This document shows positions 1,171-56,740 of a stretch of 57,053 nucleotides of DNA, one piece after another. The notes under the pieces were generated by a model. That model was not told where the DNA came from. It did no database searches and saw only the letters and a program-made list of their open reading frames with translations. Position 1 is the first letter of the stretch, and the number at the start of each line of letters is the position of its first letter. The DNA is from a virus (Duplodnaviria > Caudoviricetes), in the IMG/VR virus record IMGVR_UViG_3300035148_000223, positions 1 through 57,053 of that record; one strand, given 5' to 3'. The position numbers and the translations under genes were made by a program.

Positions 1171-1568
1171 GCATCTCGATTCAGCTTGAGAAAAGCAGCA
1201 GCCGTGTTCTGGCCCTCCTGACAGACCTTGACGGCGTCACGCCGCTCACCAACTTGACGAGTGTCCTCGCCACCCTGAAGCTCACCCTCACCGAGCAGAA
1301 AAGCGGATCGGTCATCAACAGCCGCTCCGCGCAGGACGTCAAGAACGCCAACGGTTTCACGCTGCACGATGCCGTGCAGACGGACCCGGCCACCGGGACC
1401 ACCTACAACGTCAGCGGGTTTCTCGACCCAGCCGACAACGCGATCACCCAGACCTCTGCCGCGATGGAGGTCCATGTCCTGCTCTTCGAGTGGACGTGGG
1501 GGACGCCCACGCGCACGGGGCGCGGCGATGCCTCCTACGCGGTGCGGAACCTGCGGACGGTCGCCTAG
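1167..1568 (+). CDS. Hypothetical virion/baseplate-associated protein
   Basis: ATGA overlap with the upstream gene; beta-rich 133 aa protein; sits between tail appendage and lysis genes. Confidence 0.6.
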   Translation: MSISIQLEKSSSRVLALLTDLDGVTPLTNLTSVLATLKLTLTEQKSGSVINSRSAQDVKNANGFTLHDAVQTDPATGTTYNVSGFLDPADNAITQTSAAMEVHVLLFEWTWGTPTRTGRGDASYAVRNLRTVA

Positions 1569-1576
1569 AAGGACCT

Positions 1577-2086
1577 ATGCCCGAGAGCGAGTATGTGACT
1601 ATGTCCGAGTTCACGCGCTGGTGGAGCGAGGAGTCGAAGACCCGCGAGCGCCTAGAGCGCCGCATGGAGTCGGGCTTTTCGGACCTGAAGCGCGCTGTGG
1701 ACGAGGTGGCCGGGCTTCAGCGGGCCGCGAACGGCAAGACCGCCGAACACGCGCGCATGATTGCCGTGATGGAGCGGGACGTCGCGGCGATCAAGAGTGC
1801 CGAAGTCGATGTGGCCGAGACCGTTCACAGCATCCAGCAAGAGGGCTGTCACCAATACGAAAGTCACCGTGCCGCCCTCGGCGTGCTGGAGGGGTCCGGA
1901 GCCATGATGCCGACGGAGGGTCCGCCGTCGCGCAGCCTGTTCGTCATGCCTGCGCTGACCGTGCGGCAGAAAGCCGTCGCCGGAGTCGGCGTGACCGCTC
2001 TCTTGCTGCCCGCCGTGGTGGAGCTAGTGAAGCTCGCGACGGCGCTCGCGTCGTGGCTGCAAACGATTCATGCCGTGCCGAGGTAA
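1577..2086 (+). CDS. Coiled-coil protein with C-terminal transmembrane segment (lysis-associated)
   Basis: GAAGGA RBS; coiled-coil N-terminal half; hydrophobic AVAGVGVTALLLPAVVELV; upstream of the endolysin. Confidence 0.6.
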   Translation: MPESEYVTMSEFTRWWSEESKTRERLERRMESGFSDLKRAVDEVAGLQRAANGKTAEHARMIAVMERDVAAIKSAEVDVAETVHSIQQEGCHQYESHRAALGVLEGSGAMMPTEGPPSRSLFVMPALTVRQKAVAGVGVTALLLPAVVELVKLATALASWLQTIHAVPR

Positions 2087-2094
2087 TCCGTTCG

Positions 2095-2361
2095 ATGGCG
2101 ACGCCGACACGTCCGAGACCTTCCCCAACCCCTGAAGAAGAACGCGAGTGGCTGGCCGAGCGCGCGGCCATCCTCGTGTACGCCCTGCGCCATCTGGCCT
2201 CGGCGTGGCATCGGAAGCACGCGACGCCGGACGGGCCGACGTGGGCGCACTGTTCGGAACACTTCTGCAAGATGGCGCATGAAGCCTCGGAAGGGCGGCT
2301 GATGGCCGCGACGAAGACCGAGTACGGCGTGGTCGTCTCGCTGAAGGAAAAGGGGGCGTAG
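2095..2361 (+). CDS. Hypothetical protein
   Basis: MATPTRPRP ORF fills the gap; stop overlaps the endolysin start. Confidence 0.55.
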   Translation: MATPTRPRPSPTPEEEREWLAERAAILVYALRHLASAWHRKHATPDGPTWAHCSEHFCKMAHEASEGRLMAATKTEYGVVVSLKEKGA

Positions 2362-2813
2362 TGGAAGTCCTGCCGGGGAGCCGCTTGCACTGGACGGAAA
2401 TTGCCTGCCGCGACCGGCGCAACACGCCGTATCCGCTCGACTGGCGCACCGATCCGACGCGGCTTCCGGCGCTGGTCTCGGCCTTTCGCGCCGTGCGCGA
2501 TGAGTGTTCGGACGCGGCGGGGATGGATTGCCCGCTCCTGATCCTCGAAGGGTACCGGACAGAGGCCTATCAGGAAGTGCTTCGGCAGAACCCGCGCTAC
2601 AAGGCGGCGAAAAACTCGCAGCACTGTCAGGGCCGCGCGCTGGACGTCGCCTGCCCGCGCCTCTTGACCTTCGACGAGTTCGCGAACGCGGTGCGTCGCG
2701 CGTGCGCGCACGAGGGATCGCCGATTCGCTACGTCGAGCTTCGGCCGTCCATGAACTACATCCACTTCGACGTGCGGCCGACGAAGCGGCTGCTGGAGGA
2801 GACGGTCCCATGA
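2361..2813 (+). CDS. Endolysin, peptidase M15A family
   Basis: Zinc-ligand motifs EGYRT, AKNSQHCQGRALDV and YIHFDVR. Confidence 0.88.
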   Translation: MEVLPGSRLHWTEIACRDRRNTPYPLDWRTDPTRLPALVSAFRAVRDECSDAAGMDCPLLILEGYRTEAYQEVLRQNPRYKAAKNSQHCQGRALDVACPRLLTFDEFANAVRRACAHEGSPIRYVELRPSMNYIHFDVRPTKRLLEETVP

Positions 2814-3949: not shown

Positions 3950-4218
3950 ACCCGCTATACGTGACGATGCTCGGGGCGGCGCTCCGCGCGATCCTTTTGG
4001 GTCTGTGCGGGGGCCTCATCGAGAAGGGGATCTGGACGACCGGGCAAGTGGAACAGTTGGCCCTCGGGCTGGCCGGGTTCTTCGCGACCGTCGTCTGGAT
4101 TCTCTGGATCAAGTACAAGGACCGGCTGCATTTCGACGCGGCGCTCCAGACGCCAGCCGGGACGACCGAAAGCGAGATTCGGGCGTTGGTGAAGCGCGGC
4201 GAGTTGCCGCAGAAGTAG
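3946..4218 (+). CDS. Putative holin
   Basis: 90 aa, two hydrophobic helices, charged C-terminus, located in the lysis cluster. Confidence 0.7.
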   Translation: MNPLYVTMLGAALRAILLGLCGGLIEKGIWTTGQVEQLALGLAGFFATVVWILWIKYKDRLHFDAALQTPAGTTESEIRALVKRGELPQK

Positions 4219-4225
4219 AGGTCTT

Positions 4226-4710: not shown

Positions 4711-5088
4711 TCACCTTCGGCCGGGTGTCCCCGCTTGGGAGGCGGCAATCCAGCCGTCGGGGAGCGCATCCGGCCGAGGCTCTTCCTTCCGTCCAGCCGC
4801 CCAGCGCATCGCGAGCGTCACAAACTTGACGGCCTGCTCCTCTGAGATGACCGTGAGGACCGGGAACCCGCGCCACTCGTCGTGCCACTTGCGCTGGTCC
4901 GGGGTCAGGGGCTTCTTCCCGTTCTTGATTTCGATGACGTAGGTCCAGCCGCACGCGCCGACCAAGAGGTCTGGACAGCCATCGCCCACGGCCGCGAGAC
5001 TCTGGACCGAGAAGTTGGCCCGCTCGAAGATGCCCACGATGGCCTTCTGGTTGCCGTCCACCTTGCCGCGATGGCCACGTCGGTTCAT
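4711..5088 (-). CDS. VRR-NUC domain nuclease (Holliday junction resolvase-like)
   Basis: KVDGNQKAIV, GCPDLLVG, IEIKNGKKPLTPDQRKW motifs. Confidence 0.85.
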   Translation of the reverse strand: MNRRGHRGKVDGNQKAIVGIFERANFSVQSLAAVGDGCPDLLVGACGWTYVIEIKNGKKPLTPDQRKWHDEWRGFPVLTVISEEQAVKFVTLAMRWAAGRKEEPRPDALPDGWIAASQAGTPGRR

Positions 5089-5783: not shown

Positions 5784-6377
5784 TCATGTGAGCGACTTCT
5801 GGTCGCGCTCGACGAGCTTGGCCTTGCGGCCCTCGCGCTGAAAGCTCGCCAGCATCTTGTCGGCATCCTCGGGCGAGCGGGCCTCGACGAGGACGTAGTA
5901 GGACAACTGGCCCATGCGCTTCGCCCGGCGAATCTCGGTGCCGAGTTTGCGGACGGGCCACGCCGCGCCGTCGTCGCCCTTCGCCGCCATCTCCAGCCAC
6001 TTGCGCTGCGACGGGGCCGGAAGGTCGGCGACCTCGCGGTGGTGCGAGAACGTCAGGCCGGACGCGGGCGGGTGACGATTCTCGGGCGGCACGTTCCGGC
6101 AGACCCACTTCCACTGCTCGGCGGTCGCGGGTTCGATCTGGAGCGTGTCAAGGATCTGCGAGAGTTCTTCGCTGTAGAGGTCTTCTCCGGCGATGAGCAG
6201 GTCGCCTACCCACCACTGGATTGCGCCGTGAATGGTGCCGCACCAATCGAAGACGGCTCCGAAGTCCGAGAGCGTCGGCTTGCCGGTCACGATGAGGCGG
6301 GTGGCCTCGAAGGTGAACTTCCCCGCATTGGACGGGCGCAGGGTCATCTTCGTGGCGTGCTTGTCGGGCGTGGTCAT
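5784..6377 (-). CDS. LmbU-like DNA-binding protein
   Basis: QWWVGDLL, LTFSHHREVADL, QRKWLEMA and WPVRKL motifs typical of the LmbU family. Confidence 0.7.
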   Translation of the reverse strand: MTTPDKHATKMTLRPSNAGKFTFEATRLIVTGKPTLSDFGAVFDWCGTIHGAIQWWVGDLLIAGEDLYSEELSQILDTLQIEPATAEQWKWVCRNVPPENRHPPASGLTFSHHREVADLPAPSQRKWLEMAAKGDDGAAWPVRKLGTEIRRAKRMGQLSYYVLVEARSPEDADKMLASFQREGRKAKLVERDQKSLT

Positions 6378-6703
6378 GCGGTCGGCTCCGAGACGAGCGT
6401 GTACATCCAGACGCCTTTCGAGACAAGGTCGCGCTCGATGCCGTAGCCTTGCTGCTTCAACTCGAAGATGCGCGCCCCGTAACGGTAGCAGATGCCGTTC
6501 AGCACGACGTTCGTCGCCGGTCCCTCGCGGAGCCTCGCGAGGACGCGGTCCTTGGCGGTCGCGAGTCGCGAGGCTTCGTCGGCTTGCTGCTCGGCATGGG
6601 TCTGCCAGACGGTCTGCCGCTCCGCTGGCGTGGGGAGGTCGGCGGGCCGGGTGACGGTGTAGCCGTCCTCGGCCAGACACGAGAAGAGGTCTGTCTGGTT
6701 CAC
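6374..6703 (-). CDS. Winged-helix DNA-binding protein
   Basis: RVLARL...RYGARIFELKQQGYGI; TAGGAGGACCC RBS, GTG start. Confidence 0.65.
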   Translation of the reverse strand: MNQTDLFSCLAEDGYTVTRPADLPTPAERQTVWQTHAEQQADEASRLATAKDRVLARLREGPATNVVLNGICYRYGARIFELKQQGYGIERDLVSKGVWMYTLVSEPTA

Positions 6704-7533: not shown

Positions 7534-8282
7534 TCGTCCTCCATGAGAATCTGGGGCGGGGGCGCGCTCAGAACGTGCTTCCGATTGCGCGCCTCGGTCT
7601 GCCGCCGCAGGTCGTCGGCGTTCTGGGGCTTCTGCTGGGCGGCGAGTTTGTTCCAGCATGACGCGAGGATGGCCATGTCCTTCCCGCTCTGCTGGATGAA
7701 GCGGTCGTGGCTGTCGAAGAGCCGGGGGAGCATCGCGACGACGGCGTCGTACCCGTGCTGCTGAATCAGCCGCTTGGCGTGGGCGGCGTCCTTGCCGCTG
7801 TAGTGGGGCTTGGTTCCCACTTCTGCCCGGAAGAGCTTTTCGTGTTCCGAGAGCAGGGCCTTGATGGTGTGGGCGTTCCCCGTACGTACTGATGGATCTT
7901 GTGACGGATCTACTGACGGATCGGGTGACACCCGTGTCACCCCAGAGGTGACAGGTACGTCACCCCTAGTGGTCTCCGACGTCACCCCCAGATGTTGTGG
8001 GGTGTCAGATTGGCACCCCAAGAGATGAAGCCGCCAGACGGTCGGGAACCGGCTCGTCGCGGGCTTGTCCACCGCGATATAGCCTGCCGTTTCAAGGTCG
8101 CGCAGGCATCGTTGTACTGACCGCACGCTGATGTCGCAATCGGTCGCGATGGTCTTGACCGACGGATAGGAGCTTCGCCCTTGGTCGTTCGCGCAATCGG
8201 CCAGCTTGAGGAGAACGAGTCGGTGGGACGCCGAGGCGAGGCCCCGGACGTCCCACACGGCGGTCATGTAGCGGATGCTCAC
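7530..8282 (-). CDS. Replication initiator protein (N-terminal winged HTH)
   Basis: LVLLKLADCAND...SYPSVKTIATDCDISVRSVQRCLRDLETAGYI; immediately upstream of the DnaC-like gene. Confidence 0.82.
   Translation of the reverse strand: MSIRYMTAVWDVRGLASASHRLVLLKLADCANDQGRSSYPSVKTIATDCDISVRSVQRCLRDLETAGYIAVDKPATSRFPTVWRLHLLGCQSDTPQHLGVTSETTRGDVPVTSGVTRVSPDPSVDPSQDPSVRTGNAHTIKALLSEHEKLFRAEVGTKPHYSGKDAAHAKRLIQQHGYDAVVAMLPRLFDSHDRFIQQSGKDMAILASCWNKLAAQQKPQNADDLRRQTEARNRKHVLSAPPPQILMEDE
7925..8020. repeat. Iteron-like GTCACCCC/GGTGACA repeats inside the initiator gene (candidate origin)
   Basis: GGTGACACCCGTGTCACCC, GGTGACA, CGTCACCCC (twice), GGGGTGTCA and GGCACCCC cluster in the initiator linker, as in lambdoid origins. 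Confidence 0.5.
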
Positions 8283-9169
8283 TTGGCCCTCGTCACGAAC
8301 GTCGAGTCCTTCATCGCGCGCAGGCCCGTGACGTTGAGGTCCTTCTGCTGGCTCCGGGCCAGCGCGTCGAGGAGCTTGGACACGGGCGCGACCATCTCCA
8401 GCGTCGTGAGGCGCACGTCCGCCTCGGTCGCGAAGCGGGAGAGGTATTTCTGGATGACCTGCCCCGTGGGGTGGGCCTTCAACTGCGGCGACATGGACCG
8501 GAGCATTTCGGCCGCGACGCACGCGAGGATGAAGCTGTTGGGGTCATCGACCACGGCGCTCCACGTCGTACGCGTGTATTCGCCGTCCACCTTGCCGCCC
8601 GCTTCTGGCAGGGCCACGGGCTTGACGTTCAGCGGAGCCTCGGCCACCGACGCGGCCTGCTCTTTCAGTGCCGCCTTGACGGACTTGTCGGTGGTCGCCT
8701 TGGCGGCGGCGGCGAGTGCGGCCAGTTCTACGCGCCGCTTCTCGGCCGCTTCCGCCTCGGCCTTGCGCCGGGCCTCTGCCAACTCCCGCTCGCGCTCCTC
8801 GGCCACGCGCGCGTCGTATGCCGTGATGCTGCGGTTGCAGAGTTCTTTCTCGGACTTCGCGGGGTCAAGGAACGAGTCGCGCGTCTGGCTGATGATGGCG
8901 ACGACGTTCTTCGCCGGGTCCAGCATCTTCTTGAACGTGGCCTCGACGAGCTTGATCATCGACTGCGCGTCGCGGTAGCGCAGGGCCACCGTCTCGCGCA
9001 TCTTGGGCGTGGAGATGGGGTAGTAGACGCGGCCATCGGGTCCGGGGACCAACGCGGGCAGCGCGCTGTCGTGGGTGAACGTCGTGAACGCCTTCACGAG
9101 TTCCTCGGGCGGACGCGTGTCGATGGTGGTGACGGTCGGTGCCGCCGCAGAGCTAGACGTCTTAGCCAT
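8279..9169 (-). CDS. Coiled-coil protein in the recombination module
   Basis: GGAGGACCC RBS; long Glu/Ala/Arg-rich coiled coil. Confidence 0.7.
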   Translation of the reverse strand: MAKTSSSAAAPTVTTIDTRPPEELVKAFTTFTHDSALPALVPGPDGRVYYPISTPKMRETVALRYRDAQSMIKLVEATFKKMLDPAKNVVAIISQTRDSFLDPAKSEKELCNRSITAYDARVAEERERELAEARRKAEAEAAEKRRVELAALAAAAKATTDKSVKAALKEQAASVAEAPLNVKPVALPEAGGKVDGEYTRTTWSAVVDDPNSFILACVAAEMLRSMSPQLKAHPTGQVIQKYLSRFATEADVRLTTLEMVAPVSKLLDALARSQQKDLNVTGLRAMKDSTFVTRAK

Positions 9170-9773
9170 TGTGGGTCCTCCAGTACGATTCGAGCCGAGA
9201 AAGAAACACAGTATAGTCTTCCGGGTCTTCGTATTCACGCACGATGAGTTGGCCGTCGCGCAGATAGACCCCTAGCCGCCTGCGGGGCAGCGAGCCACGG
9301 TAGGGCGCGAGGAGGTCGTAGGCGGCGAGTTGCACGCCGTGATGCTTCGCGGGCGCGCACGTCTTGATGTCCAGCACGACTTCCCCCGCGTAGCGCGAGG
9401 TCGTGAGGATGCCGATGCGGTCCACGATGCCCGCGACACGTAGGTCGTCGCGGTAGAGGGGCGTCTCGATATGCGTGAAGTGCGGGCGGTTGACGGCCTT
9501 CCAGACCGCCCACTGGCGCAGGTAGCGTTGGTCCTCGGCGCTGGCCGAGGCGATGATGCGCCGCTGGTTCTGCTCGCTGGCAAGGTCCATCTTCACGGTC
9601 AGCTTGTGGATGCGCGTGCCGCGCTCGGCGGGACGCCCGTCCGACAGGAACTCCAGTTGGTCCTTGACCGTCTTCGGCACCGAAAGCATGGTGACGTGTG
9701 GGACGCGCACGCCCTCGAAGGTGAAGGCGTGCGCGGTCGCGTCAAAGCACAGGGGAGAGGGTCCGCGTGTCAT
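9162..9773 (-). CDS. PD-(D/E)XK exonuclease (RecB/Cas4-like fold)
   Basis: ERGTRIH, IETPLY, AGIVDRI, VLDIKT and QLAAY motifs. Confidence 0.85.
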   Translation of the reverse strand: MTRGPSPLCFDATAHAFTFEGVRVPHVTMLSVPKTVKDQLEFLSDGRPAERGTRIHKLTVKMDLASEQNQRRIIASASAEDQRYLRQWAVWKAVNRPHFTHIETPLYRDDLRVAGIVDRIGILTTSRYAGEVVLDIKTCAPAKHHGVQLAAYDLLAPYRGSLPRRRLGVYLRDGQLIVREYEDPEDYTVFLSRLESYWRTHNG

Positions 9774-10696
9774 TCGCCGGGCCGTTTCTTCGAGGCGAGC
9801 CACCCCAGCACGTCCTCGAAGTAGATGCTGGGCAGGTCGGCCGAGTGATCGACGTTGTACTTGAGCTTGATGTGTTTCTTCACGTCGTCGGGGTCACGGC
9901 CCGCCTCTTGGAGCTTGACCCACAGGAAATTGCGCTGCTTCTGGCTGATGGGATGCGGAGCCGAGGCGACCGGCTTGTCGCTCTTCCACTTGTCGGCGTT
10001 CGGGCTGTGCGGGGCCACCCGAATCTCCTGCCACTTCGGCGTCACGTCCACGCGCCGCCAGACGGCTTGCTCTTCGTTCTTGACGACGGCGATGACTCGG
10101 ATGCAGTTCGCCTTGATGAAGCGGTCCACGAACCGGCGGTCCCAGCACTCCGAGGCGATGCCGAGGTCCTTGCAGCACCGCATCAGCGCGTTGGACTTGA
10201 TCACTTCGAGCGCGGTCGCCTTCGAGACGCGCTTGTTGCTCGGGTTGTATTCGGCCTCGCCCCACGCGACGGCGCGCACGAGGTCATGCACGAGCAGCGC
10301 CCACTGCTGCATCAGCGTGGTGCCGTTGTCGTCCATGATGGGCAGGTTCAGGTTCTTCAGCGACCAGCCGCCGCTGCCGAAGACCGCTGTCAGTCTGCGG
10401 CGATACTCGACCTGCGGGAAGTAGATTTCCCCCGTGGGCAGGATGTCGATCAGGTCCGGGTCCACCGGGGCCGTGAGCGCCTTGTGCTGCTTCTCGGTGA
10501 ACGGTTCCTTGCCCCACGGGTAGCCGATGTAGGGCGCGGACGTGAGGGCAATCGGCTCGCTCGGGGTGGGCGGCGGCGGCGCACTGATGACCGTGATGAC
10601 GCCGTGGTCGCCGTGTGGCGCGCCGACGAGCGCGCGGGGTTCTACGCGCCGGGCGAGAGCGGTGGTGCGCGCAGGGGTCTTTTTCTTCGTCTTCAT
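9770..10696 (-). CDS. Mgm101/Rad52-family single-strand annealing protein
   Basis: IDILPTGEIYFPQVEYRRRLTAVFGSGGW...SNALMRCCKDLGIASECWD matches the Mgm101 core. Confidence 0.85.
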   Translation of the reverse strand: MKTKKKTPARTTALARRVEPRALVGAPHGDHGVITVISAPPPPTPSEPIALTSAPYIGYPWGKEPFTEKQHKALTAPVDPDLIDILPTGEIYFPQVEYRRRLTAVFGSGGWSLKNLNLPIMDDNGTTLMQQWALLVHDLVRAVAWGEAEYNPSNKRVSKATALEVIKSNALMRCCKDLGIASECWDRRFVDRFIKANCIRVIAVVKNEEQAVWRRVDVTPKWQEIRVAPHSPNADKWKSDKPVASAPHPISQKQRNFLWVKLQEAGRDPDDVKKHIKLKYNVDHSADLPSIYFEDVLGWLASKKRPGE

Positions 10697-10832: not shown

Positions 10833-11057
10833 CTACCTCGGCGCGTGGTCGGTCGCCTCGCGCAGCGCCCACTCCATCGTATCGGCGACAGAGACGACGG
10901 CGTCCGGGTTGGCCTTGGCCAGCCGTCGGCGCAGCGTCGTCAGCAGTTCGTGACCGCTCGGCGTCAGCAGCACCGTCAGTTGCCGCGAGCGGTCTTTGCC
11001 CCGGAACAGCGAGCGCGGCCCGCCAACTCCCGGCGCAGAGGTCTTGAGCGTTGCCAT
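10833..11057 (-). CDS. Small DNA-binding protein (ribbon-helix-helix-like)
   Basis: GAAGGAG RBS; own promoter; LTVLLT...SVADTMEWALRE pattern. Confidence 0.55.
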   Translation of the reverse strand: MATLKTSAPGVGGPRSLFRGKDRSRQLTVLLTPSGHELLTTLRRRLAKANPDAVVSVADTMEWALREATDHAPR

Positions 11058-12223: not shown

Positions 12224-12691
12224 CTATAGGTCTTGCGGGTTGAACGTGATGTCGCGGACGCGTTCTACCCCCGGCTCCGAGAGCTTGGGGGTGATGCGGT
12301 TGATGGCGCGCTCGGTGCGGTCGATAGCGGCCGTGGCACGCTTGACGGTGTAGAGACTGCCCTCCTCCGCGCCCGTGCGGAGCTTGCGCCACGCCGCTTC
12401 GAGGCGCTTTTCGAGGCGGGCCTTCTGCGCCAGCAGCATGCTGGCGCGGTAGAGGTCTGTCCGCTTGAAGGCGGCGAGGGCCGCGCGCCGCTCGGCCTTC
12501 GTCTGGGCCTTGCGCGCCTCGGCTCGCCGCTTCCGAAGCTGGTCGTAGCCCCAGCGGATGTTGCGCCTGCACAGGCGGCAGGCATAGGCGCGGGACGCCA
12601 ACTTCGAGGTCTGGTTGGTCGTCCCGCACCACGGGCAATCGACGTAGGCCGCGCGCAGTTCACGAGGCTGAGTCGGCACAGTACACCTCAT
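12224..12691 (-). CDS. Zinc-ribbon plus coiled-coil protein
   Basis: CPWC...CRLC motif; basic coiled coil. Confidence 0.6.
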   Translation of the reverse strand: MRCTVPTQPRELRAAYVDCPWCGTTNQTSKLASRAYACRLCRRNIRWGYDQLRKRRAEARKAQTKAERRAALAAFKRTDLYRASMLLAQKARLEKRLEAAWRKLRTGAEEGSLYTVKRATAAIDRTERAINRITPKLSEPGVERVRDITFNPQDL

Positions 12692-13124
12692 GGCTCACGG
12701 TGGGCGGCTCGACGTCGTCTTCGCGCAAGAGTTCGAGCGCGAGGTCGCGGAGGTGGCTGTCGGGCCACAGCACGCCGCCAAAGAGGTCTGGCACCGTGAA
12801 GGTCCCGGTCTGCCACTTGTCGTCGAACATCATGTCGATGCCGCCGACGGATTGCGTGACGTGCCACTGCTTGCAGGTCGGGCAGCGGCGCTCCAGCAGC
12901 ATGACGAGGCCGACGTGCTGGTCGGGGTTGCCGTAGTAGCGGAGGTATTCCTCGTACGGGATGGGGATGTCGTGATTCATGTACGGCCCCTTCTCGTAGC
13001 TCTCCCGCGACTCGGGGAGCGGCTGGCCGTCGCTCCCCTCCGGCACGAAGGTCTCGTCGTACTCGATGCGGAACCGGCAGGTGGTCAGCACCGGGTTCGT
13101 CAGGCGATAGACCGGCACCTTCAT
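12660..13124 (-). CDS. Hypothetical protein
   Basis: MKVPVYRL; ATGA coupling; CPTC motif. Confidence 0.6.
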   Translation of the reverse strand: MKVPVYRLTNPVLTTCRFRIEYDETFVPEGSDGQPLPESRESYEKGPYMNHDIPIPYEEYLRYYGNPDQHVGLVMLLERRCPTCKQWHVTQSVGGIDMMFDDKWQTGTFTVPDLFGGVLWPDSHLRDLALELLREDDVEPPTVSHEVYCADSAS

Positions 13125-13507
13125 TTCCCTTCTCCCTTCATGGCGATGCGAACGCTGATGTTGCGGTCCTTCCAGAAGCGGTCCATGACGTGCCGCTTGA
13201 ACTTGGCGGCGGTCATCTCCGAGGCGTTGGTGGACAGGCCAACGTGGCGCTTCACGTCGTCGGCCGTGATGTAGAGGTCTTTCACGGTGCTGTCCACCTC
13301 CACCGTCGCGCGGAAGGCCCCGAAGAGGCGCTCGTAGACGTCCGCGCGGGTGGCAAACTCCTCGACGTTCGCCTCGGTGATGCGGGGCATGCCGACGAAC
13401 ATCGTCACCCAGATGAGGGTGTCGGTCGTCGGGTTGAGCTTGCCGTCCTTCGTCTTGCAGACGGTCTCGCGGTTCGCGATCTTCGAGATGTCCCAACTGA
13501 GTCCCAT
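13121..13507 (-). CDS. Hypothetical protein
   Basis: TAGGAGGACC RBS; 128 aa. Confidence 0.7.
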   Translation of the reverse strand: MGLSWDISKIANRETVCKTKDGKLNPTTDTLIWVTMFVGMPRITEANVEEFATRADVYERLFGAFRATVEVDSTVKDLYITADDVKRHVGLSTNASEMTAAKFKRHVMDRFWKDRNISVRIAMKGEGK

Positions 13508-27391: not shown

Positions 27392-27400
27392 AGGTCTGCC

Positions 27401-44782: not shown

Positions 44783-44883
44783 TGCGCTTCATGGGGTGGA
44801 GCTACCGCGACCTGTGCGACATGCCCGCGTCGTGGTGGCCCATCCTGATAGACCTCTTCGAGGAAGCCAATCGCGAGGACTAA
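44737..44883 (+). other. -1 programmed frameshift (A AAA AAC) producing the GT-like chaperone extension
   Basis: Heptamer at 44737-44743; the -1 frame reads RVWSDGVRSDLILMRFMGWSYRDLCDMPASWWPILIDLFEEANRED to the TAA at 44883. Confidence 0.8.
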
Positions 44884-47800: not shown

Positions 47801-48192
47801 CCGACAAGCTCATCGCGAAGATCGACGAGTTGATCAAGACGCTCTCGACCGGGCTGGTCGCCGCTGCCGAATCGGGCGTGCAGGGCATGGCGAATGCCTT
47901 CCGGAGCGCCGACCTTCGCATCTCGCCACGCGTGGACTGGCCGCGCGACGGCATGGAGGAGACGCCGTCGTTCGCCTCGGGCGGCTGGGGCAACTTCGGC
48001 CGTGGCACGTTGGCGATGCTGCACGGGCGCGAGGCTATCGTCCCGCTGGACAAGCCGTCGGCGATTGGGCGCGCCCTGTCCTCGCAGACCTCTGGCGGCG
48101 GACGCGCCAACATCTATCTCGACGGGCGCATGGTCGCCGAATTGCTCGTGCCGCACCTTCCCGGTGTCGTGCGCGACTACGCGCTGGGGTAG
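44887..48192 (+). CDS. Tape measure protein
   Basis: 1101 aa, Ala/Gly-rich helical; FAKKTPFE; FASGG...LAMLHGREAIVP C-terminus. Confidence 0.95.
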   Translation: MTADEVTAILKARDEASGVIRGMLSNVESGMKGLAGTGEGVTSILKTMVGTFGGFAAANAVMGAVSNSFSMAKSAIIDMNANLETSTLKFTTLMGDAGKAREHVQGLFEFAKKTPFESGPILEASKLLRTFGGDALDNTKNLTLIGDAAAASGAGIQDLGFWVGRMYSSMQAGRPFGEAAMRLQELAILTPEARNQLEQMQKSGAKGAEMFDVFTKSIERFSGSMALQEKSWTGVTSTFADVVKMASADLFRPLFEAVRDTIYKINQFLGSDLVQEGIKRLAEKMEVFFNFIVQWGDVAVQGLVEVFGTISKHTETVLRGVDQLAEAFTSNLAPGIEAVKDLFSTMIDLDTQFVSGILSALDAMAPSVWQAIVDVVEALSAGFSYAAEWLAVLYESAQPALEAFGDAIWSAIVETVKTLASAFSLVAGVLETVWNIGAEVLAWIRQSETAMAVLGAVWSAVVAPMKAVADAISITMWAIRKFIDTVREALELVGLLKTRLPEVAGDSGFKALTDRGLKPAGEASQVLAAQLGKANDALGVISGGGLPKATAATKALGDEADKTGKKIKDALGDLFKGGYDKMLVENEKKLRDAAKVTDDQFGAAMQNIYKPWQKPTTPIIEEGEGFGVVPEMLRKPGEQAAQSWLEGFKSIQQGAPALIVQALAGGGGMSGAFQALGTQYGNMIGANLSKSISAKFANNATLSKMGESLGGLMGPLVGAGMQKLDQWSASAEQSASKTKAAFAGAASWAAKGMMIAGPWGAAIGGVAGAIKGVFAATAEGKKVNDLRDQFISAAGGLAALNEKAHKAGATLDQLLKAKNTKEFEAAVTALNGKLAVTAKLEADLLGLRGELASRQAMDWKTAEELITKYGGSLANLGKQFTDAKTQANWSDIWADWDRLTTMGADVGGVLSSMSDEISKLVQESVAFGTTIPENFRALIDELARTGQLLDENGQAIKDTSNLNYGEKMLSDTDKLIAKIDELIKTLSTGLVAAAESGVQGMANAFRSADLRISPRVDWPRDGMEETPSFASGGWGNFGRGTLAMLHGREAIVPLDKPSAIGRALSSQTSGGGRANIYLDGRMVAELLVPHLPGVVRDYALG

Positions 48193-48195: not shown

Positions 48196-50010
48196 ATGGC
48201 GCTCACCGTCACCATCGGCGGCGTGACGAAGACGCCAGTCGCGATGACGCTCTCGTCGGCGCAGAACGAACGCGACCGCCTGACGCTCACGCTCGTCTCG
48301 GACACCGGGGCCAACATCCGCCCGAACATCGACGACGAAGTGCTGGTGGTCGAGGACAGCGTGACCATCTTCGGCGGCTCCGTCAAGACACCGGAACTGT
48401 CGGGCCTCGGCACCTCACCCACGGCCGTCTCCGCGCGGGCGTCCTGCCTCGACTACAACGAACTCGGCGACCGCATCGTCGTCGTCGGCCTGACCATCCC
48501 CACGGGGACGCTGAAGGCGGCGGCGACCGCGCTCTTGCCCTACCTGCCGGGCGTGTCGATTGACTCGTCGTGGACGTCCGACGGGCCGACACTGCCGGAG
48601 TTGGTCTATGACGGGCTGTACGCCGACGCGGCGCTGGAAGACCTCTCGACGCGCACCGGCTGGGTCCGCAACATCAACGCCACGAAAAAGCTCAAGTTCT
48701 GGACCCCCGGCACCATCGCGGCCCCGTGGAACGTCACCGATGGCGACGGCAACGTCGTCGGCGACCTCACGTCGGTTATCACGCGCAAGGACTACGCCAA
48801 CCGCATCATCGTGAAGTTCCTCGACGCGGCGATTTCCGCGTGGGGGTTCTTCGGCCCGAAGCAGGGCATGTCGTCCCTGCCCTCGGCCGGAGAGACCGTC
48901 ACGGTGGGCAGCAAGACCTACACATGGCGCGCGACGCTCGGCGCGCCTGCGAACGAGGTCCTGATCGGCGCGGACGTCAGTGCGTGCATCAGCAATCTGG
49001 CCTGCGCCATCGTGGAAGGCGACGGCAAAGGCCCGACCTACTCGACCGCCACCACGGCCAACACGCAGGTCATCGCGTGGCAAGCCGCGCCAGACCGCAT
49101 GACGGTCAAGGCCCAGACAGCGGGAGCCGCCGGAAACAATCTCGCGCTGACGACGAACTGCGCGAACTGGCGCTGCTACCACGAAGGCAACATCGAGTGG
49201 GGGCATCTGCAAGGGGGAGCCGACGAGGCCTTCCGGAACTCGGTGCAGGTCGATGCCGTGGCGCTCCAGCCGCCCGTCTACACGCGTATTGTCGAAGCCG
49301 CCAACGTCTACAACGTCACCGATGCGACGGCCATCGGCGAAGCCATCCTGACCGAGGCCACGGTCGTCATGGAGACCGTCCGGTACAAGACGCGCCGGTC
49401 GGGGCTGACCGTCGGGATGTCGCAGACGATTGCCTCGGCCAAGCGGCATGTGACGAGTGCGACGTTCCTCATCACGGCCATTGAGACGACATGGTCGCCC
49501 GGCGGGCTGGCGTGGCGCGACGTGACGGCCATCAAGGGCACCACGTATAGAAATACCTCTTGGCGTGAGCTGTACAAACAGTGGTCTGGCGCGAGCGGGA
49601 CCGCGCAGTCGGTCACGTACGGGGGCGTGGGCGGTGGTGGGTCTTCCCCGACCGCGCGCGTCTACACGCTGGGCGGGTCACGGTCGCTCTACGTTGCGCC
49701 GAACCCGAAGGCATGGACGCCAGTGCCGGAGTGGATACCGTTCAAGGCCCCGGCGGGCTTCTCCGCGCGGGTGCGCGTGTGGATGTGGGCGCGAAACGCG
49801 GGCATCACGGTCTCGGCCCGCGTGACGAGTGGGACGGATGGCATCACGTTCGGCACGGTGTCCGCATCGCTCGCGGACGTGACCGGGCAGACCGTGACAG
49901 AGCGCACGGCCGACTTCGTCGTCGAGGCCGACAAGTACTATCGGCTAGAGGTCTATCCAAGCTCTAACGGGGAGGGCGTCGGATGTCTCGGATATGTCGA
50001 GTCGCTGTAG
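48196..50010 (+). CDS. Tail tip/hub protein
   Basis: Follows the tape measure; IFGG.V and DYANRI motifs. Confidence 0.75.
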   Translation: MALTVTIGGVTKTPVAMTLSSAQNERDRLTLTLVSDTGANIRPNIDDEVLVVEDSVTIFGGSVKTPELSGLGTSPTAVSARASCLDYNELGDRIVVVGLTIPTGTLKAAATALLPYLPGVSIDSSWTSDGPTLPELVYDGLYADAALEDLSTRTGWVRNINATKKLKFWTPGTIAAPWNVTDGDGNVVGDLTSVITRKDYANRIIVKFLDAAISAWGFFGPKQGMSSLPSAGETVTVGSKTYTWRATLGAPANEVLIGADVSACISNLACAIVEGDGKGPTYSTATTANTQVIAWQAAPDRMTVKAQTAGAAGNNLALTTNCANWRCYHEGNIEWGHLQGGADEAFRNSVQVDAVALQPPVYTRIVEAANVYNVTDATAIGEAILTEATVVMETVRYKTRRSGLTVGMSQTIASAKRHVTSATFLITAIETTWSPGGLAWRDVTAIKGTTYRNTSWRELYKQWSGASGTAQSVTYGGVGGGGSSPTARVYTLGGSRSLYVAPNPKAWTPVPEWIPFKAPAGFSARVRVWMWARNAGITVSARVTSGTDGITFGTVSASLADVTGQTVTERTADFVVEADKYYRLEVYPSSNGEGVGCLGYVESL

Positions 50011-54731: not shown

Positions 54732-55847
54732 ATGGCTGTAGCACACGACGCCGCGACGGGCAGCGTCTACACGGCTGCGACCTCGCCCCACACGTTCAAT
54801 CACACGCCGACCGGGACGCCGAAGGGCGTTCTGCTGTTCTGCATCAACTACGATTCCTCGACGAAGCGCGTCACCGCCGCCAGCTATGGTGGTCAGGCGA
54901 TGACGGAGGTCGGGGATGCGTCCGACACCGCTGGCGAAGCCACGAACGTCGCGGTCTGGTTCCTTGGCTCGGGCATCCCGACCGGCCAGCAACAGGTCAG
55001 CATCGACGTCGGCACCGCCGGGGACGACCACTACTTCGTCTGTGTGACCGTCACGGCTTCGACCGCCTCCACGGCCATCCAGAACACCCAAGAGATCAAC
55101 GGCGACACGGCCAACCCGCAAGTCACGCTTCAGTACGGGGGAATCTCTTGCCTTGGCTACGTGGGGCTGGCCGGTGGAGCCTCGACGGTCGCGTCGTACT
55201 CGCTCCTCTCGGGCATGTCCACCGGCCTGTCCAACGACTCTGGGCAGGAGATTCAGCGCGTGGACCGGCAGACCTCTGCCGGGACAAGCAACTTCACCAT
55301 CGGCTACAGCTACGCCACGTCCGACGACGTGGCGCTGTTCGCGGTCGCCGTGCGCGAGGAAACGGCGCAGACGATCACCGGACAGTCGGTTGGGCTGAAT
55401 GCCGCCATCTCGGTCGCCAGCGTCCTACCGGGAGCCGTGACGGTCAACGGCGCGACCATCAACGCGAACCTCGCCGTCACCGCCGCGACCCTTCAGGCGA
55501 CTATCACGCGAGCCGGAGCGTCGATTGGCCGCGACTTGTCTGTCGTCGATGGCATATCAGGCAAACCGGCCGAAGTCATCGTCGGCCCCGTGACGGTCGC
55601 GGGAGCCGCTGTCGAGCGAGCGATGACCGTCACCGCTGCGGCGGCGGTGCCGGGGCATGTGAGTATCTACGCGCAAGATGCCGTCGCGCTGGCATCTACC
55701 GTGGCCGCTGGCACCGTGCAGCCGGGGGCCGTCACGATCAACGGGGTGGATTCGTTCTTCTCGACAATGAGTGTGACTGCCGCCGACATCTCCGTGCCGG
55801 AGCAAGCCTCGTCGGTGGTATTCTTCCGCCGCGTTCGCGTGGCATGA
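54732..55847 (+). CDS. Virion appendage protein (beta-sandwich plus Ala/Val/Thr repeats)
   Basis: SYGGQAMT motif; C-terminal repeats resemble 1-1170. Confidence 0.7.
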   Translation: MAVAHDAATGSVYTAATSPHTFNHTPTGTPKGVLLFCINYDSSTKRVTAASYGGQAMTEVGDASDTAGEATNVAVWFLGSGIPTGQQQVSIDVGTAGDDHYFVCVTVTASTASTAIQNTQEINGDTANPQVTLQYGGISCLGYVGLAGGASTVASYSLLSGMSTGLSNDSGQEIQRVDRQTSAGTSNFTIGYSYATSDDVALFAVAVREETAQTITGQSVGLNAAISVASVLPGAVTVNGATINANLAVTAATLQATITRAGASIGRDLSVVDGISGKPAEVIVGPVTVAGAAVERAMTVTAAAAVPGHVSIYAQDAVALASTVAAGTVQPGAVTINGVDSFFSTMSVTAADISVPEQASSVVFFRRVRVA

Positions 55848-55855
55848 GGTCTTCC

Positions 55856-56227
55856 ATGAAGAGAGTCTGGGTCGCCGTCCTGTTCCTCTTGGTCGCCAGC
55901 GTTGCCGTCGCACAGCAGACGAAGCCGACGAATCCCCGCGAAGGCACGTTCTCGGCCAGCCCCGATCACGCGCAACTGGACAGGTACGTTCTCGGGTTCT
56001 TCCTGCCCGGTGCGGCCAGTCCGGTGCAGACGCAAGACATCGGGAAGCCGACGCCGGACGGGTCTGGGGTCTGCACGTTCACGTTCAACTCGCAGCCGTT
56101 GACGTTCGGCGTGGACTACGTGGCAAAGGTCAAGTCGGTAGCCGGAGCCGCCGAAAGCGGCTGGAGCGAGGCGTCCAACCCTTTCGACCGGGTGCCGGGA
56201 AGCCCCGGCAAGCCTGTGATTCGGTGA
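55856..56227 (+). CDS. Signal-peptide-bearing fibronectin type III-like protein
   Basis: MKRVWVAVLFLLVASVAVA|Q; YVAKVKSV...ESGWSEASN. Confidence 0.7.
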   Translation: MKRVWVAVLFLLVASVAVAQQTKPTNPREGTFSASPDHAQLDRYVLGFFLPGAASPVQTQDIGKPTPDGSGVCTFTFNSQPLTFGVDYVAKVKSVAGAAESGWSEASNPFDRVPGSPGKPVIR

Positions 56228-56285
56228 ACTGGCTGTGGCGCTGGCTGTGGCGGGTCTTCGGATGGTGTGAATGAAAAGAGGGCGT

Positions 56286-56732
56286 ATGACGAAGTGGATC
56301 GCCGGAGCAGTGGTCGTGTTGCTGTTGCTGTCGGGACAGGCGTTCGCGCAGGGAACGACGACGCCCACCGTCCTGCCCACGGGCGCGGTCGGACTGGCGC
56401 AGAAGCTCTTGCTCACGCTACGCGGCGTGGATGCCGTCGATCATACGATGATGCTGCCGACCGGCTGTACCGTGGCGTGGGCGGTCCATGACGAGAAGGG
56501 CGCGGTGGTCGAGGGCGTGGCCGATTTCGTCGAGCAAGCCGCGTCCGCAGAGTCTCCGGGCGGCTGGTGGTTCGTGCCGAAGGGCAAGATGGGAACCTAC
56601 ATCGTGAAGGCCACCGTCACGCTCCCGGCGCAGCAGTCGCCGCTCGCGGCTCCAGCCGAAGCGAAGATGATCGTGCAGGGCGACATCGTGAAGGTCATCA
56701 TCGGGTTCACCGGCTCGGCGGTTCCCAAGTAG
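56286..56732 (+). CDS. Signal-peptide-bearing Ig-like protein
   Basis: MTKWIAGAVVVLLLLSGQAFA|Q; GTYIVKATV. Confidence 0.65.
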   Translation: MTKWIAGAVVVLLLLSGQAFAQGTTTPTVLPTGAVGLAQKLLLTLRGVDAVDHTMMLPTGCTVAWAVHDEKGAVVEGVADFVEQAASAESPGGWWFVPKGKMGTYIVKATVTLPAQQSPLAAPAEAKMIVQGDIVKVIIGFTGSAVPK

Positions 56733-56740
56733 AGGTCTGC

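What the first reader, a model, noticed from the sequence alone, without database searches (positions are those of the whole stretch)
1450..56738. Genome-wide hyper-iterated quasi-palindrome AGA-SS-TCT (AGAGGTCT/AGACCTCT)
Seen: at least 41 exact copies by manual scan, at 1450, 4217, 4965, 6176, 6685, 11037, 12451, 12782, 13273, 14089, 15698, 17253, 17596, 20427, 20929, 21389, 24088, 24506, 25951, 26346, 26831, 27390, 28105, 28426, 30042, 32063, 33313, 34349, 39552, 41418, 42162, 44850, 45630, 45906, 46200, 46602, 48086, 48639, 49947, 55270 and 56731. A rough base-composition estimate predicts only about 1-2 copies. It occurs in both orientations, both arms, inside genes (often forcing unusual codons such as ACA/GCA/TTG) and at stop/RBS junctions (TAGAGGTCT). 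Relaxed variants such as GGGGTCT are also frequent. Inference: a selected protein-binding or modification site spread over the whole genome. It could be a loading site for the ParB-like protein, the target of the PAPS-reductase/ParB pair, a genome-coating or packaging signal, or mimicry of a host protective motif.
Basis: partly seen in the sequence, partly recalled or inferred. Interest (0 to 1): 0.85.

Follow-up and report, generated by a model that had tools for sequence, protein, structure and literature searches.

The report
Selected 8-base word saturating a phage
One 8-base DNA word is written into this phage genome about 25 times more often than chance or protein coding can explain, most likely as a recognition signal for a DNA-processing protein that is still unidentified.

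Summary
AGAGGTCT/AGACCTCT occurs 41 times in this 57,053-bp, 66% GC phage genome, at every listed coordinate. Composition predicts 1.1-1.5 copies. [quoted passage not shown]

The enrichment survives shuffles that keep amino acids and codon usage: 33 coding copies against 2.5 +/- 1.5. Between 40% and 64% of the synonymous opportunities in the usable frames are realised. The codon upstream of the in-frame 7-mer ends in rare A in 28 of 40 cases, against 8% elsewhere.

The word is asymmetric, AG(A/c/g)(G/c)GTCT, not a palindrome. Both orientations are used equally once coding opportunity is counted, and copies are spread evenly.

It is absent from head-module relatives and from 68 phage loci with ParB-like homologs. 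None of 425 bacterial genomes from two phyla is enriched.

Best reading (about 0.37): a Chi-type signal for a DNA-tracking helicase-nuclease that works by density, as in Chi-rich phage P1. Against this: the phage has its own recombination module, the word is costly to encode, and the host is unknown. A phage-encoded reader such as the ParB-like protein is nearly as likely.

The parts
1450..1457 (-). motif copy (AGACCTCT on + strand); in gene 1167-1568(+), frame CAG ACC TCT (Q-T-S)
4217..4224 (+). motif copy overlapping the TAG stop of 3946-4218; its AGAGG serves as Shine-Dalgarno for 4226-4612
4965..4972 (+). motif copy; gene 4711-5061(-), CCA GAC CTC TTG (P-D-L-L)
6176..6183 (+). motif copy; gene 5784-6377(-), GAA GAC CTC TAC
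6685..6692 (+). motif copy; gene 6374-6703(-), ACA GAC CTC TTC
11037..11044 (+). motif copy; gene 10833-11096(-), AAG ACC TCT (K-T-S)
12451..12458 (+). motif copy; gene 12224-12679(-), ACA GAC CTC TAC
12782..12789 (+). motif copy; gene 12660-13124(-), CCA GAC CTC TTT
13273..13280 (+). motif copy; gene 13121-13507(-), AAA GAC CTC TAC
14089..14096 (+). motif copy; end of gene 14087-15166(-), ACA GAC CTC TAG (overlaps the stop codon)
15698..15705 (+). motif copy, intergenic, directly upstream of the GTG start of 15401-15697(-)
17253..17260 (+). motif copy; gene 15730-17286(-), AAA GAC CTC TTC
17596..17603 (-). motif copy, intergenic; reads AGAGGTCT-agac-GTG on the - strand and acts as Shine-Dalgarno for 17346-17591(-)
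20427..20434 (-). motif copy; gene 20182-20607(-), GAA GAG GTC TTC (E-E-V-F)
20929..20936 (+). motif copy, intergenic, just upstream of the RBS of 20616-20918(-)
21389..21396 (+). motif copy; gene 21189-21755(-), TCA GAC CTC TCG
24088..24095 (-). motif copy at codons 4-6 of the ParB-like gene (AAG ACC TCT)
24506..24513 (-). motif copy; ParB-like gene, GAA GAC CTC TTG
25951..25958 (-). motif copy; small ORF 25925-26041(+), ACA GAC CTC TTT
26346..26353 (+). motif copy; methyltransferase-like gene, ACA GAG GTC TTG
26831..26838 (+). motif copy; hexapeptide-transferase gene, CAA GAG GTC TTC
27390..27397 (+). motif copy overlapping the TAG stop of 27158-27391; acts as Shine-Dalgarno for 27401-27835
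28105..28112 (+). motif copy; gene 27974-28558(+), CAA GAG GTC TGG
28426..28433 (+). motif copy; gene 27974-28558(+), GCA GAG GTC TTT
30042..30049 (+). motif copy; large terminase gene, CAA GAG GTC TTG
32063..32070 (+). motif copy; portal-like gene 31488-32882, ACA GAG GTC TTG. None of 25 aligned relatives has E-V-L here
33313..33320 (-). motif copy; gene 32886-35360(+), CAG ACC TCT
34349..34356 (-). motif copy; gene 32886-35360(+), GCA GAC CTC TTC
39552..39559 (-). motif copy, intergenic, upstream of the RBS of 39573-40061
41418..41425 (-). motif copy; gene 41377-41715(+), GAA GAC CTC TTG
42162..42169 (-). motif copy; gene 42103-42495(+), ACA GAC CTC TTC. 16 of 20 aligned relatives have D-I-F here, 4 have D-L-F
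44850..44857 (-). motif copy; ORF 44782-44883(+), ATA GAC CTC TTC
45630..45637 (-). motif copy; 1101-aa tail gene 44887-48192, GCA GAC CTC TTC
45906..45913 (-). motif copy; same gene, AAA GAC CTC TTT
46200..46207 (+). motif copy; same gene, GCA GAG GTC TTG
46602..46609 (-). motif copy; same gene, GGA GAC CTC TTC
48086..48093 (-). motif copy; same gene, CAG ACC TCT
48639..48646 (-). motif copy; gene 48196-50010(+), GAA GAC CTC TCG
49947..49954 (+). motif copy; gene 48196-50010(+), CTA GAG GTC TAT
55270..55277 (-). motif copy; gene 54732-55847(+), CAG ACC TCT
56731..56738 (+). motif copy overlapping the TAG stop of 56286-56732; acts as Shine-Dalgarno for 56741-56989
23423..24085 (+). PAPS-reductase-domain protein (candidate DNA-modification enzyme; a link to the motif is not shown)
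   Evidence: Pfam PF01507, E = 4.7e-11
24078..24851 (+). ParB-like protein (candidate phage-encoded reader; a link to the motif is not shown)
   Evidence: PHROG 9353/620/723; model pLDDT 85.6; Foldseek hits to ParB, Noc and KorB, E down to 6e-7
8279..10696 (-). phage recombination module: exonuclease-like gene 8279-9169, PD-(D/E)XK nuclease 9162-9773, Mgm101/Rad52-type annealase 9770-10696. It holds 0 copies of the core word and lies inside the motif-free gap 6693-11036

Best explanation
The 8-mer 5'-AG(A/c/g)(G/c)GTCT-3' is a positively selected DNA-level recognition word that works by density. The phage has written it wherever the proteins allow, mostly by silent changes and sometimes by conservative amino-acid changes. 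It appears in both orientations and evenly along the genome.

The mechanism I commit to is Chi-type logic. A DNA-tracking helicase-nuclease enters at double-strand ends and recognises the word with some probability each time it passes a copy. The enzyme would most likely be the unknown host's RecBCD/AddAB-class enzyme, or less likely the phage's own RecB-family nuclease. On recognition it switches from degrading DNA to protecting or recombining it. Every added copy, in either orientation, then shortens the stretch of phage DNA lost from any end. This suits a circularly permuted, headful-packaged genome whose ends fall anywhere.

Shown: the enrichment, selection at the DNA level, the asymmetry of the word, the lack of orientation preference, the even spread, and its restriction to this phage.

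For: (1) The only documented class of phages whose most frequent octamer is a selected word at about one copy per 1.4-1.9 kb is the Chi-rich class. LLS has 23 Chi sites (1 per 1.86 kb), P1 has 50 (1 per 1.9 kb) and MD8 has 32; in each, Chi is the top octamer (PMC12315714, sections 6, 15 and 18 read). Here the word ranks 1 of 16,239 octamers at 1 per 1.39 kb.

(2) Selection acts on count and is close to saturation: 18 of 40, 6 of 15 and 9 of 14 synonymous opportunities are realised, against expectations of 0.76, 0.30 and 0.34. That fits a reader for which each extra copy still helps, as with a probabilistic tracking enzyme.

(3) The word is an asymmetric 8-mer whose one-mismatch variants are partly enriched: AGCGGTCT 11 vs 1.5, AGGGGTCT 9 vs 2.7, AGACGTCT 8 vs 2.1.

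(4) Balanced orientation (23:18), with similar realised fractions in both orientations (17 of 36 and 16 of 37), matches what I measured in headful-packaging P1. Its Chi sites split 31 forward and 19 reverse and are intermixed.

(5) An open frame runs across the end-to-start junction, which is compatible with a circular or permuted genome.

(6) The rare Chi-rich phages that also carry a Rec module lack Chi near that module (PMC12315714, section 16). Here the Rec module has 0 copies and sits inside a 4.35-kb motif-free gap (P = 0.044 for a gap of that size at a fixed place).
Against: (1) The phage encodes its own recombination toolkit: an Mgm101/Rad52-type annealase (E = 1e-38), a PD-(D/E)XK nuclease, an exonuclease-like protein and a resolvase-like endonuclease. 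In lambdoid phages, abundant Chi goes with having no Rec module; only 13-14 of 314 combine the two.

(2) No host is known. None of 425 bacterial genomes shows enrichment: 4 that hold related prophages, 300 more from the phylum of G001, and 120 more from the phylum of G004, with G001 and G004 each counted once in the total of 425. The highest density is about 0.8 per 10 kb, against 7.2 in the phage, and most genomes are at or below the reversed-word control.

(3) Known Chi words are built from the host's commonest codons. This word is 50% GC in a 66% GC genome and needs rare A-ending codons, so it would be costly to keep abundant in a similar host chromosome.

(4) There is no terminal clustering and no strand bias like those of the cos-type Chi-rich phages (KS p = 0.89).

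(5) Two other motif-free gaps of about 5.2-5.3 kb exist, so the gap over the Rec module may be chance.
Confidence: 0.37

Rival explanations
1. Loading or targeting site for a phage-encoded DNA-binding protein, with the ParB-like protein (24078-24851) as prime candidate. The protein would load at the word and spread or slide. It would then coat phage DNA or recruit and activate the neighbouring PAPS-reductase-type enzyme on phage DNA only. On this reading the word is a phage-private 'self' mark, chosen because it is rare in GC-rich bacterial DNA.
For: The ParB-family fold is confirmed and extends beyond the N-domain. The gene sits next to a PAPS-reductase, the small terminase, a methyltransferase and an acyltransferase. 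This layout resembles the phage post-replicative DNA-modification clusters in which a ParB-like protein activates its partner enzyme on dsDNA (PMC13229309, abstract and sections 8 and 12 read).

ParB relatives with many dispersed sites exist: Noc and KorB are among the fold hits. Their site numbers are recalled, not taken from a call.

The word is 10-70 times rarer in the surveyed bacterial genomes than in the phage, which would make it a good discriminator. It is compositionally costly, which is expected for a private mark and unexpected for a word borrowed from the host. One copy lies at codons 4-6 of the ParB-like gene itself.
Against: 0 of 68 loci of at least 8 kb encoding ParB-like homologs (34-52% identical) carry the word. 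Their top-word scores (median 5.0) equal those of controls (5.3), against 11-14 for pieces of the window.

Known ParB-family sites are 13-16-bp palindromes (recalled). This word is 8 bp, asymmetric, and has no information in its flanks.

Spreading proteins should not need 41 sites at near-saturation density.
Confidence: 0.22
2. Target of a sequence-specific covalent DNA modification or a strand nick made by a phage enzyme, such as the PAPS-reductase-type enzyme. More sites would give more protected or processed positions.
For: The PAPS-reductase domain belongs to the enzyme class that makes DNA phosphorothioates in Dnd/Ssp/BREX-4 systems (PMC12914056, passages read). One reported consensus there, CCTC, lies inside AGACCTCT. 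Nick-associated motifs of 9 bp enriched about 13-fold exist in tf-like Pseudomonas phages (PMC11780129, passages read).
Against: Known phosphorothioate consensus sites are 3-4 nt, only 0.2-17% modified, and not reported as over-represented. Nick motifs lie on one strand only (13 of 13), whereas here the split is 23:18. No DNA methyltransferase was found among the 50 of 90 proteins scanned with Pfam or the 30 scanned with PHROGs. There is no obvious reason why a modification should select for near-saturating site density.
Confidence: 0.13
3. A neutral drive, HIP1-like in origin. A biased repair or conversion process in the host or phage keeps regenerating the word, and the word itself has no function.
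For: Cyanobacterial HIP1 shows comparable over-representation (15-300-fold), occurs in several frames and in non-coding DNA, and has enriched one-mismatch variants. Biased repair has been discussed as its source (PMC5861425, abstract and passages read). PMC4390886 was seen only in a search listing.
Against: The changes needed to create the word differ by site and fall at both ends of it: A at position 1 in one orientation and T at position 8 in the other. Some are amino-acid replacements. A single very-short-patch-type correction would not produce this pattern. No methyltransferase or Vsr-type enzyme was found among the proteins scanned. For HIP1 itself the cited study concluded selection, not drive. 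A host-based drive should also enrich the host genome, and no enriched genome was found among the 425 surveyed.
Confidence: 0.08
4. A by-product of protein sequence and codon bias, such as a recurring peptide.
For: 28 of the 34 fully intragenic copies share one frame and encode D-L or E-V. A word of this kind does exist in a distant relative: in L031, TCTCCAAG is N-TC TCC AAG in one frame, one orientation and preferred codons in all 10 scorable copies.
Against: Shuffles that keep amino acids and codon usage give 2.5 +/- 1.5 copies against 33 observed. The word uses two frames and both strands. 8 copies touch non-coding DNA or gene boundaries. The word depends on rare A-ending codons upstream (28 of 40 vs 8%).
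Confidence: 0.01

Closest known systems
Chi-rich phages (E. coli phages LLS and P1, P. aeruginosa phage MD8; Zheng et al. 2025, PMC12315714)
   Same: An asymmetric octamer is the most frequent 8-mer of the genome. Density is about one copy per 1.4-1.9 kb. Copies sit mostly inside genes and exceed what codon usage predicts. One-off variants are also frequent. In P1 both orientations are intermixed (31:19), as they are here (23:18).
   Different: The word is not enriched in any of the 425 bacterial genomes surveyed. This phage has its own annealase/exonuclease module. There is no end clustering or strand bias as in LLS (20:3) and MD8 (32:0). The word is compositionally costly rather than built from common codons.
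HIP1 (GCGATCGC) of cyanobacteria (PMC5861425; PMC4390886)
   Same: A hyper-iterated octamer occurs in coding and non-coding DNA with weaker enrichment of one-mismatch variants. There is evidence of selection, and the function is unknown.
   Different: HIP1 is a true palindrome, belongs to cellular genomes and is linked to orphan methyltransferases. This word is asymmetric, confined to one phage, and no methyltransferase was found.
ParB-family proteins with dispersed sites (Noc-NBS, KorB-OB, ParB-parS)
   Same: A ParB-family protein is encoded, and the word has inverted outer arms (AGA..TCT).
   Different: Known sites are 13-16-bp palindromes present in a few to some tens of copies (recalled). 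This word is 8 bp, is read asymmetrically, has no flanking information and has 41 copies.
Nick-associated motifs of tf-like Pseudomonas phages (WACTRTGAC; PMC11780129)
   Same: A short word is enriched about 13-fold over chance, lies mostly inside genes, and is specific to one phage group.
   Different: Those motifs lie on one strand only, cluster toward one genome end, and are conserved across 61 related phages. This word is on both strands, spread evenly, and seen in one phage.
Stoperators of Cluster A mycobacteriophages (recalled, no call)
   Same: Tens of copies of a short asymmetric word are spread over a phage genome.
   Different: As recalled, stoperators are 13 bp, mostly intergenic, oriented with transcription and bound by the phage repressor. 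This word is 8 bp, mostly intragenic, and its orientation follows coding opportunity only.

Membership tests
Chi-type octamer enrichment in phages | The word is the most frequent octamer of the phage genome, at about one copy per 1.4-2 kb | tested here: met
   Rank 1 of 16,239 octamers; 41 copies in 57,053 bp
Chi-type octamer enrichment in phages | The enrichment is not explained by codon usage | tested here: met
   33 observed vs 2.5 +/- 1.5 in 1000 synonymous shuffles
Chi-type octamer enrichment in phages | The same word is abundant in the host chromosome and is recognised by the host's RecBCD/AddAB | tested here: inconclusive
   The host is unknown. 0 of 425 genomes from two phyla are enriched. 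Enzyme recognition cannot be tested with these tools
Chi-type octamer enrichment in phages | The phage lacks its own recombination module | tested here: not met
   Mgm101/Rad52-type annealase, PD-(D/E)XK nuclease and exonuclease-like protein are present. The module itself has 0 copies
Chi-type octamer enrichment in phages | Strand bias and clustering toward one end (cos-type members) | tested here: not met
   23:18 orientation and an even spread, KS p = 0.89. Headful-packaging P1 is also unbiased at 31:19, so this feature does not define the whole class
HIP1-like highly iterated palindromes | The word is a perfect palindrome | tested here: not met
   The word is AGAGGTCT. The palindromic sister AGACGTCT is the weaker form (8 copies; 6:1 disadvantage at shared T-S sites) and AGAGCTCT has 0 copies
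HIP1-like highly iterated palindromes | An associated DNA methyltransferase recognises the core | tested here: not met
   None was found in the 50 of 90 proteins scanned with Pfam or the 30 scanned with PHROGs. 40 mostly structural or very small ORFs were not scanned
ParB-parS / Noc-NBS / KorB-OB systems | A ParB-family protein is encoded | tested here: met
   PHROG 620/723/9353; Foldseek hits to ParB, Noc and KorB
ParB-parS / Noc-NBS / KorB-OB systems | The site is a 13-16-bp palindrome | tested here: not met
   There is no information outside the 8 bases except weak preferences at -1 and +1, and mismatch tolerance is asymmetric
ParB-parS / Noc-NBS / KorB-OB systems | The site co-occurs with the protein across genomes | tested here: inconclusive
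   0 of 68 loci with homologs carry the word, but the homologs are only 34-52% identical and could have other specificities
Nick-associated phage motifs (tf-like) | All copies lie on one strand and nicks occur at the motif | tested here: not met
   Both strands carry the word, 23:18. Nicks cannot be tested here
Phosphorothioate (Dnd/Ssp/BREX-4) modification consensus | A 3-4-nt consensus that is only partly modified | not testable with these tools
   A PAPS-reductase domain is present. The word is 8 nt. No modification data are available

The most novel reading that the evidence does not exclude
The word is a phage-private analogue of Chi, a 'self' mark. It is deliberately rare in GC-rich bacterial DNA (about 0.1-0.8 copies per 10 kb) and saturates the phage genome (7.2 per 10 kb). 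A phage-encoded factor would read it to tell phage DNA from host DNA. Candidates are the ParB-like CTPase-fold protein with its PAPS-reductase partner, or the phage's RecB-family nuclease. Reading it would direct protection, modification, recombination or packaging to phage DNA only.
Probability: 0.25. Interest if true: 0.85.

Novelty: new variant of a known kind. Interest (0 to 1): 0.72.

Why it matters
Few short DNA words are known to be selected for sheer number across a genome. Chi, KOPS, DNA-uptake sequences and HIP1 are the main examples, and each one opened a piece of DNA-transaction biology.

This case is unusually clean. About half of all silent opportunities in the usable frames have been converted, at a cost in rare codons, in an uncultivated phage lineage.

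Either outcome can be tested with 41 defined sites and a handful of candidate proteins.

Tried and rejected
Host-wide motif. I counted the word in 4 genomes that hold related prophages, in 300 further genomes of the phylum of G001, and in 120 further genomes of the phylum of G004. None is enriched. The true host remains unknown, so this does not exclude host mimicry. The counts include unpublished genomes G156, G028 and G053 and G429, G310, G357, G327, G391 and G397. Only their motif counts enter the 'none enriched' statement.

Closer relatives. I scanned for the capsid in IMG/VR, metagenome contigs and genome contigs, and for the terminase and the AAA-ATPase in IMG/VR. A megablast of 24.9 kb against 50,697 phage records found no match, and the best tblastn hit for the terminase was 45% identical. 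Nothing closer than 76% capsid identity turned up, and the relatives share only the head module. Gene-motif co-occurrence and site conservation therefore could not be tested.

Co-occurrence with ParB/PAPS. The pair is absent from five complete relatives, except for one ParB-domain ORF in G308. I rejected this as evidence once one search showed that these genomes share only the head module.

L031 (CTTGGAGA, 11 copies vs 0.58 expected) looked like a parallel case. I rejected it: one frame, one orientation, preferred codons. The count in its genome bin therefore says nothing about this finding.

Polar functions (lagging-strand priming, KOPS-like guidance, an RNA signal). Runs of like orientation looked non-random by my hand count (12 runs, about 21 expected). 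They are fully explained by gene strand and amino-acid opportunity.

Sequencing runs. Only metagenomes hold parts of the stretch, and only at small shares. The laid contigs were fragmentary and the table of differences was cut (40 of 1131 shown), so motif sites could not be scored. A relative of about 85-93% identity seems to be present in run X3, but its sequence could not be extracted.

Literature. No microbial paper holds either spelling of the 8-mer (the single hit concerns a human promoter). A search for other hyper-iterated phage words found nothing relevant.

The maximal-order Markov model under-states the enrichment, because the 7-mers contained in the word are themselves enriched. I did not use it as a null.

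Full report
WHAT THE WINDOW IS. The window is the whole assembly: one 57,053-bp contig with 66% GC. I called genes with a codon-usage likelihood model. This gave 90 genes covering 92% of the sequence: + strand at 1-4612, - strand at 4711-22319, and + strand from 23167 to the end.

Family searches identify it as a tailed phage. It has a large terminase and a small terminase (PHROG 4102). It has a capsid with many viral relatives, an M15 peptidase and a Pam3-type holin. It has a DnaC/IstB-like loader, a PD-(D/E)XK nuclease and an Mgm101/Rad52-type annealase, and an exonuclease-like protein. No integrase, polymerase or DNA methyltransferase appeared among the 50 of 90 proteins scanned with Pfam or the 30 scanned with PHROGs.

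There is no terminal repeat, but an open frame crosses the end-to-start junction. This suggests a circular or permuted genome.

THE OBSERVATION. All 41 coordinates hold the word: 23 as AGAGGTCT and 18 as AGACCTCT on the + strand. Composition predicts 1.1-1.5 copies. It is the most frequent octamer of the genome in absolute terms, rank 1 of 16,239, although it is 50% GC in a 66% GC genome. Flanks carry almost no information, apart from a weak 'not G' before the word and G/T after it.

IS IT CODING BIAS? No. 34 copies lie wholly inside genes. 28 of them share the frame NNA-GAS-STC-TNN (Asp-Leu or Glu-Val) and 6 share the frame xAG-ACC-TCT. Shuffling synonymous codons within each gene keeps all proteins and each gene's codon usage. 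It leaves 2.5 +/- 1.5 copies in the shuffled codons, against 33 observed (maximum 8 in 1000). A stricter null that also keeps the base after each codon gives the same result.

Of all places where the word could be written silently, the following fractions are realised:
- 18 of 40 for the Asp-Leu frame (0.76 expected)
- 6 of 15 for the Thr-Ser frame (0.30 expected)
- 9 of 14 for the Glu-Val frame (0.34 expected)

The codon before the in-frame 7-mer ends in A in 28 of 40 cases, against 126 of 1578 for other GAC/GAG codons (p = 5e-21). Third-position A is 5.9% genome-wide.

Seven copies touch the 4,560 non-coding bases. Four of these serve as ribosome-binding sites in sense orientation (4217, 17596, 27390, 56731).

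At two sites with alignable orthologs the word also seems to have cost an amino-acid change. At 32063 the window has T-E-V-L, and none of 25 relatives has E-V-L. At 42162 the window has D-L-F, where 16 of 20 relatives have D-I-F.

WHAT EXACTLY IS SELECTED. Against 200 synonymous shuffles the word is the top 8-mer (41 vs 9.6, where about 7 of the 9.6 are unshuffled copies). Among the 24 one-mismatch neighbours, five exceed every shuffle. Three do so with sizeable counts: AGCGGTCT (11 vs 1.5), AGGGGTCT (9 vs 2.7) and AGACGTCT (8 vs 2.1). Two do so with small counts: AGAGTTCT (3 vs 0.5) and AGAGGTAT (4 vs 0.5). The mirror-image changes at positions 5 and 6 are not comparably enriched, and AGAGCTCT is absent.

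At Thr-Ser sites, where both AGACCTCT and the palindrome AGACGTCT are silent options, the asymmetric word wins 6 to 1. The palindrome-like look (AGA..TCT) is real in the letters but does not describe how the word is recognised.

ORIENTATION AND PLACEMENT. Blocks of like orientation exist along the map. They disappear as a signal once opportunity is counted. Realised fractions are 17 of 36 for one orientation and 16 of 37 for the other, and they are similar in every region.

Copies are spread evenly (KS p = 0.89; gap CV 0.89). This argues against a polar function such as priming or KOPS-like guidance, and against an RNA-level signal.

There are three long gaps: 5.3 kb, 5.2 kb and 4.35 kb. The last one contains the whole recombination module.

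WHO ELSE HAS IT. No one found so far.
- 29 IMG/VR contigs, 28 metagenome contigs and 4 bacterial contigs with a related capsid (32-78% identical) have 0-1 copies each in every locus counted.
- Five complete relatives have top-word scores of at most 13, against 36.6 for the window. These genomes share only the head module at 31.5-44.8 kb. The head genes of the window still carry the word, so the pressure acts on the whole genome whatever the origin of a module.
- 80 IMG/VR loci encode homologs of the ParB-like protein (34-52% identical). I scored the 68 of them that are at least 8 kb long. None has more than one copy of the word. Their top-word scores (median 5.0) match controls (5.3), and the high scorers are mostly simple repeats.
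- None of 425 bacterial genomes from two phyla is enriched.
- One apparent parallel, L031, proved to be a peptide and codon-bias artefact. It serves as a useful negative control for the method.

MECHANISM. The data demand a reader of DNA that gains from every extra copy, in either orientation, anywhere in the genome.

The documented precedent is Chi in phages. In LLS, P1 and MD8, Chi is the top octamer at about 1 copy per 1.9 kb, and it is selected so that the host's RecBCD helps rather than destroys the phage (PMC12315714). Those cos-type phages show strand bias and clustering toward one end. I counted Chi in headful-packaging P1 and found 31 forward and 19 reverse, intermixed. That is the pattern seen here.

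Chi sequences are unknown for most bacteria (PMC8022716, abstract). I therefore commit to Chi-type logic as the most likely mechanism, at about 0.37.

The weaknesses of this reading are serious:
- The phage has its own recombination toolkit.
- The word is costly to encode.
- No enriched host genome was found.

A phage-encoded reader is nearly as likely. The ParB-like protein has a true ParB/Noc/KorB-type fold. It sits beside a PAPS-reductase in a cluster that resembles phage DNA-modification modules, where ParB-like proteins act as activators (PMC13229309). However, nothing links it to this word, and known sites or specificities in those families look different: 13-16-bp palindromes for ParB-family binding, and 2-4 nt for the modifications.

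A neutral repair drive fits the site-by-site diversity of the changes poorly. A coding artefact is excluded.

VERDICT. The feature is real, strongly selected and unusual. It is a new variant of the known kind 'genome-wide word selected for density'. Its reader is unidentified, and there are clear experiments to find it.

Noticed in passing
window, 32 copies (e.g. 369, 699, 2556, 4258, 16593, 39040, 55379): A second, weaker over-represented word, CGGACAG/CTGTCCG: 32 copies vs 11.5 in synonymous shuffles. It occurs in several frames and on both strands, and only 3 copies lie next to the main word. It may be a second selected word.
   Followed up: partly
window, early operon on the - strand (e.g. 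stops of 11679-12185, 13516-14016, 19316-19588, 20182-20607, 20616-20918, 21189-21755, 22116-22319): 7 of 33 TAG stops are followed directly by GAGGAC, giving TAGGAGGAC stop/ribosome-binding-site overlaps. The 9-mer GGAGGACCC occurs 15 times against 1 expected. This looks like a conserved start-associated sequence.
   Followed up: no
window, whole genome: TAG is used as the stop codon in 33 of 90 called genes, with TGA in 41 and TAA in 15. That is high for a 66% GC genome.
   Followed up: no
window 22320-23166: An 847-bp non-coding region lies between the divergent - and + strand gene blocks. Its GC is lower (61.5%) and it has no core motif copy. It is probably a regulatory or origin region.
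   Followed up: no
window 23423-27182: A cluster of PAPS-reductase, ParB-like protein, small terminase, a class I SAM methyltransferase and a hexapeptide acyltransferase lies just upstream of the packaging genes. It resembles the phage post-replicative DNA-modification neighbourhoods described in PMC13229309.
   Followed up: partly
window 31488-44883 vs G305-G309, L030, L035: The genome is a mosaic. Only the head/neck module has relatives (28-75% identical) and everything else is unique in the collections searched. The closest prophage copy of the capsid (64%) is in a Blastocatellia MAG.
   Followed up: yes
window 57036-57053 joined to 1-1170: An open frame of 432 codons spans the end-to-start junction. 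The contig is probably a circular or permuted genome cut inside a gene.
   Followed up: partly
L031 (1752-15446): TCTCCAAG occurs 11 times in 21 kb, all in one orientation. The 10 scorable copies all read N-TC TCC AAG ([F/V/I]-S-K). This is a peptide and codon-bias word that mimics a hyper-iterated motif under Markov tests.
   Followed up: yes
L126 and L135: Two phage loci encoding ParB-like homologs show mild word enrichments that are not simple repeats: AACGTTAG 17 vs 2.3, and CGTTTAAA 11 vs 0.9.
   Followed up: no
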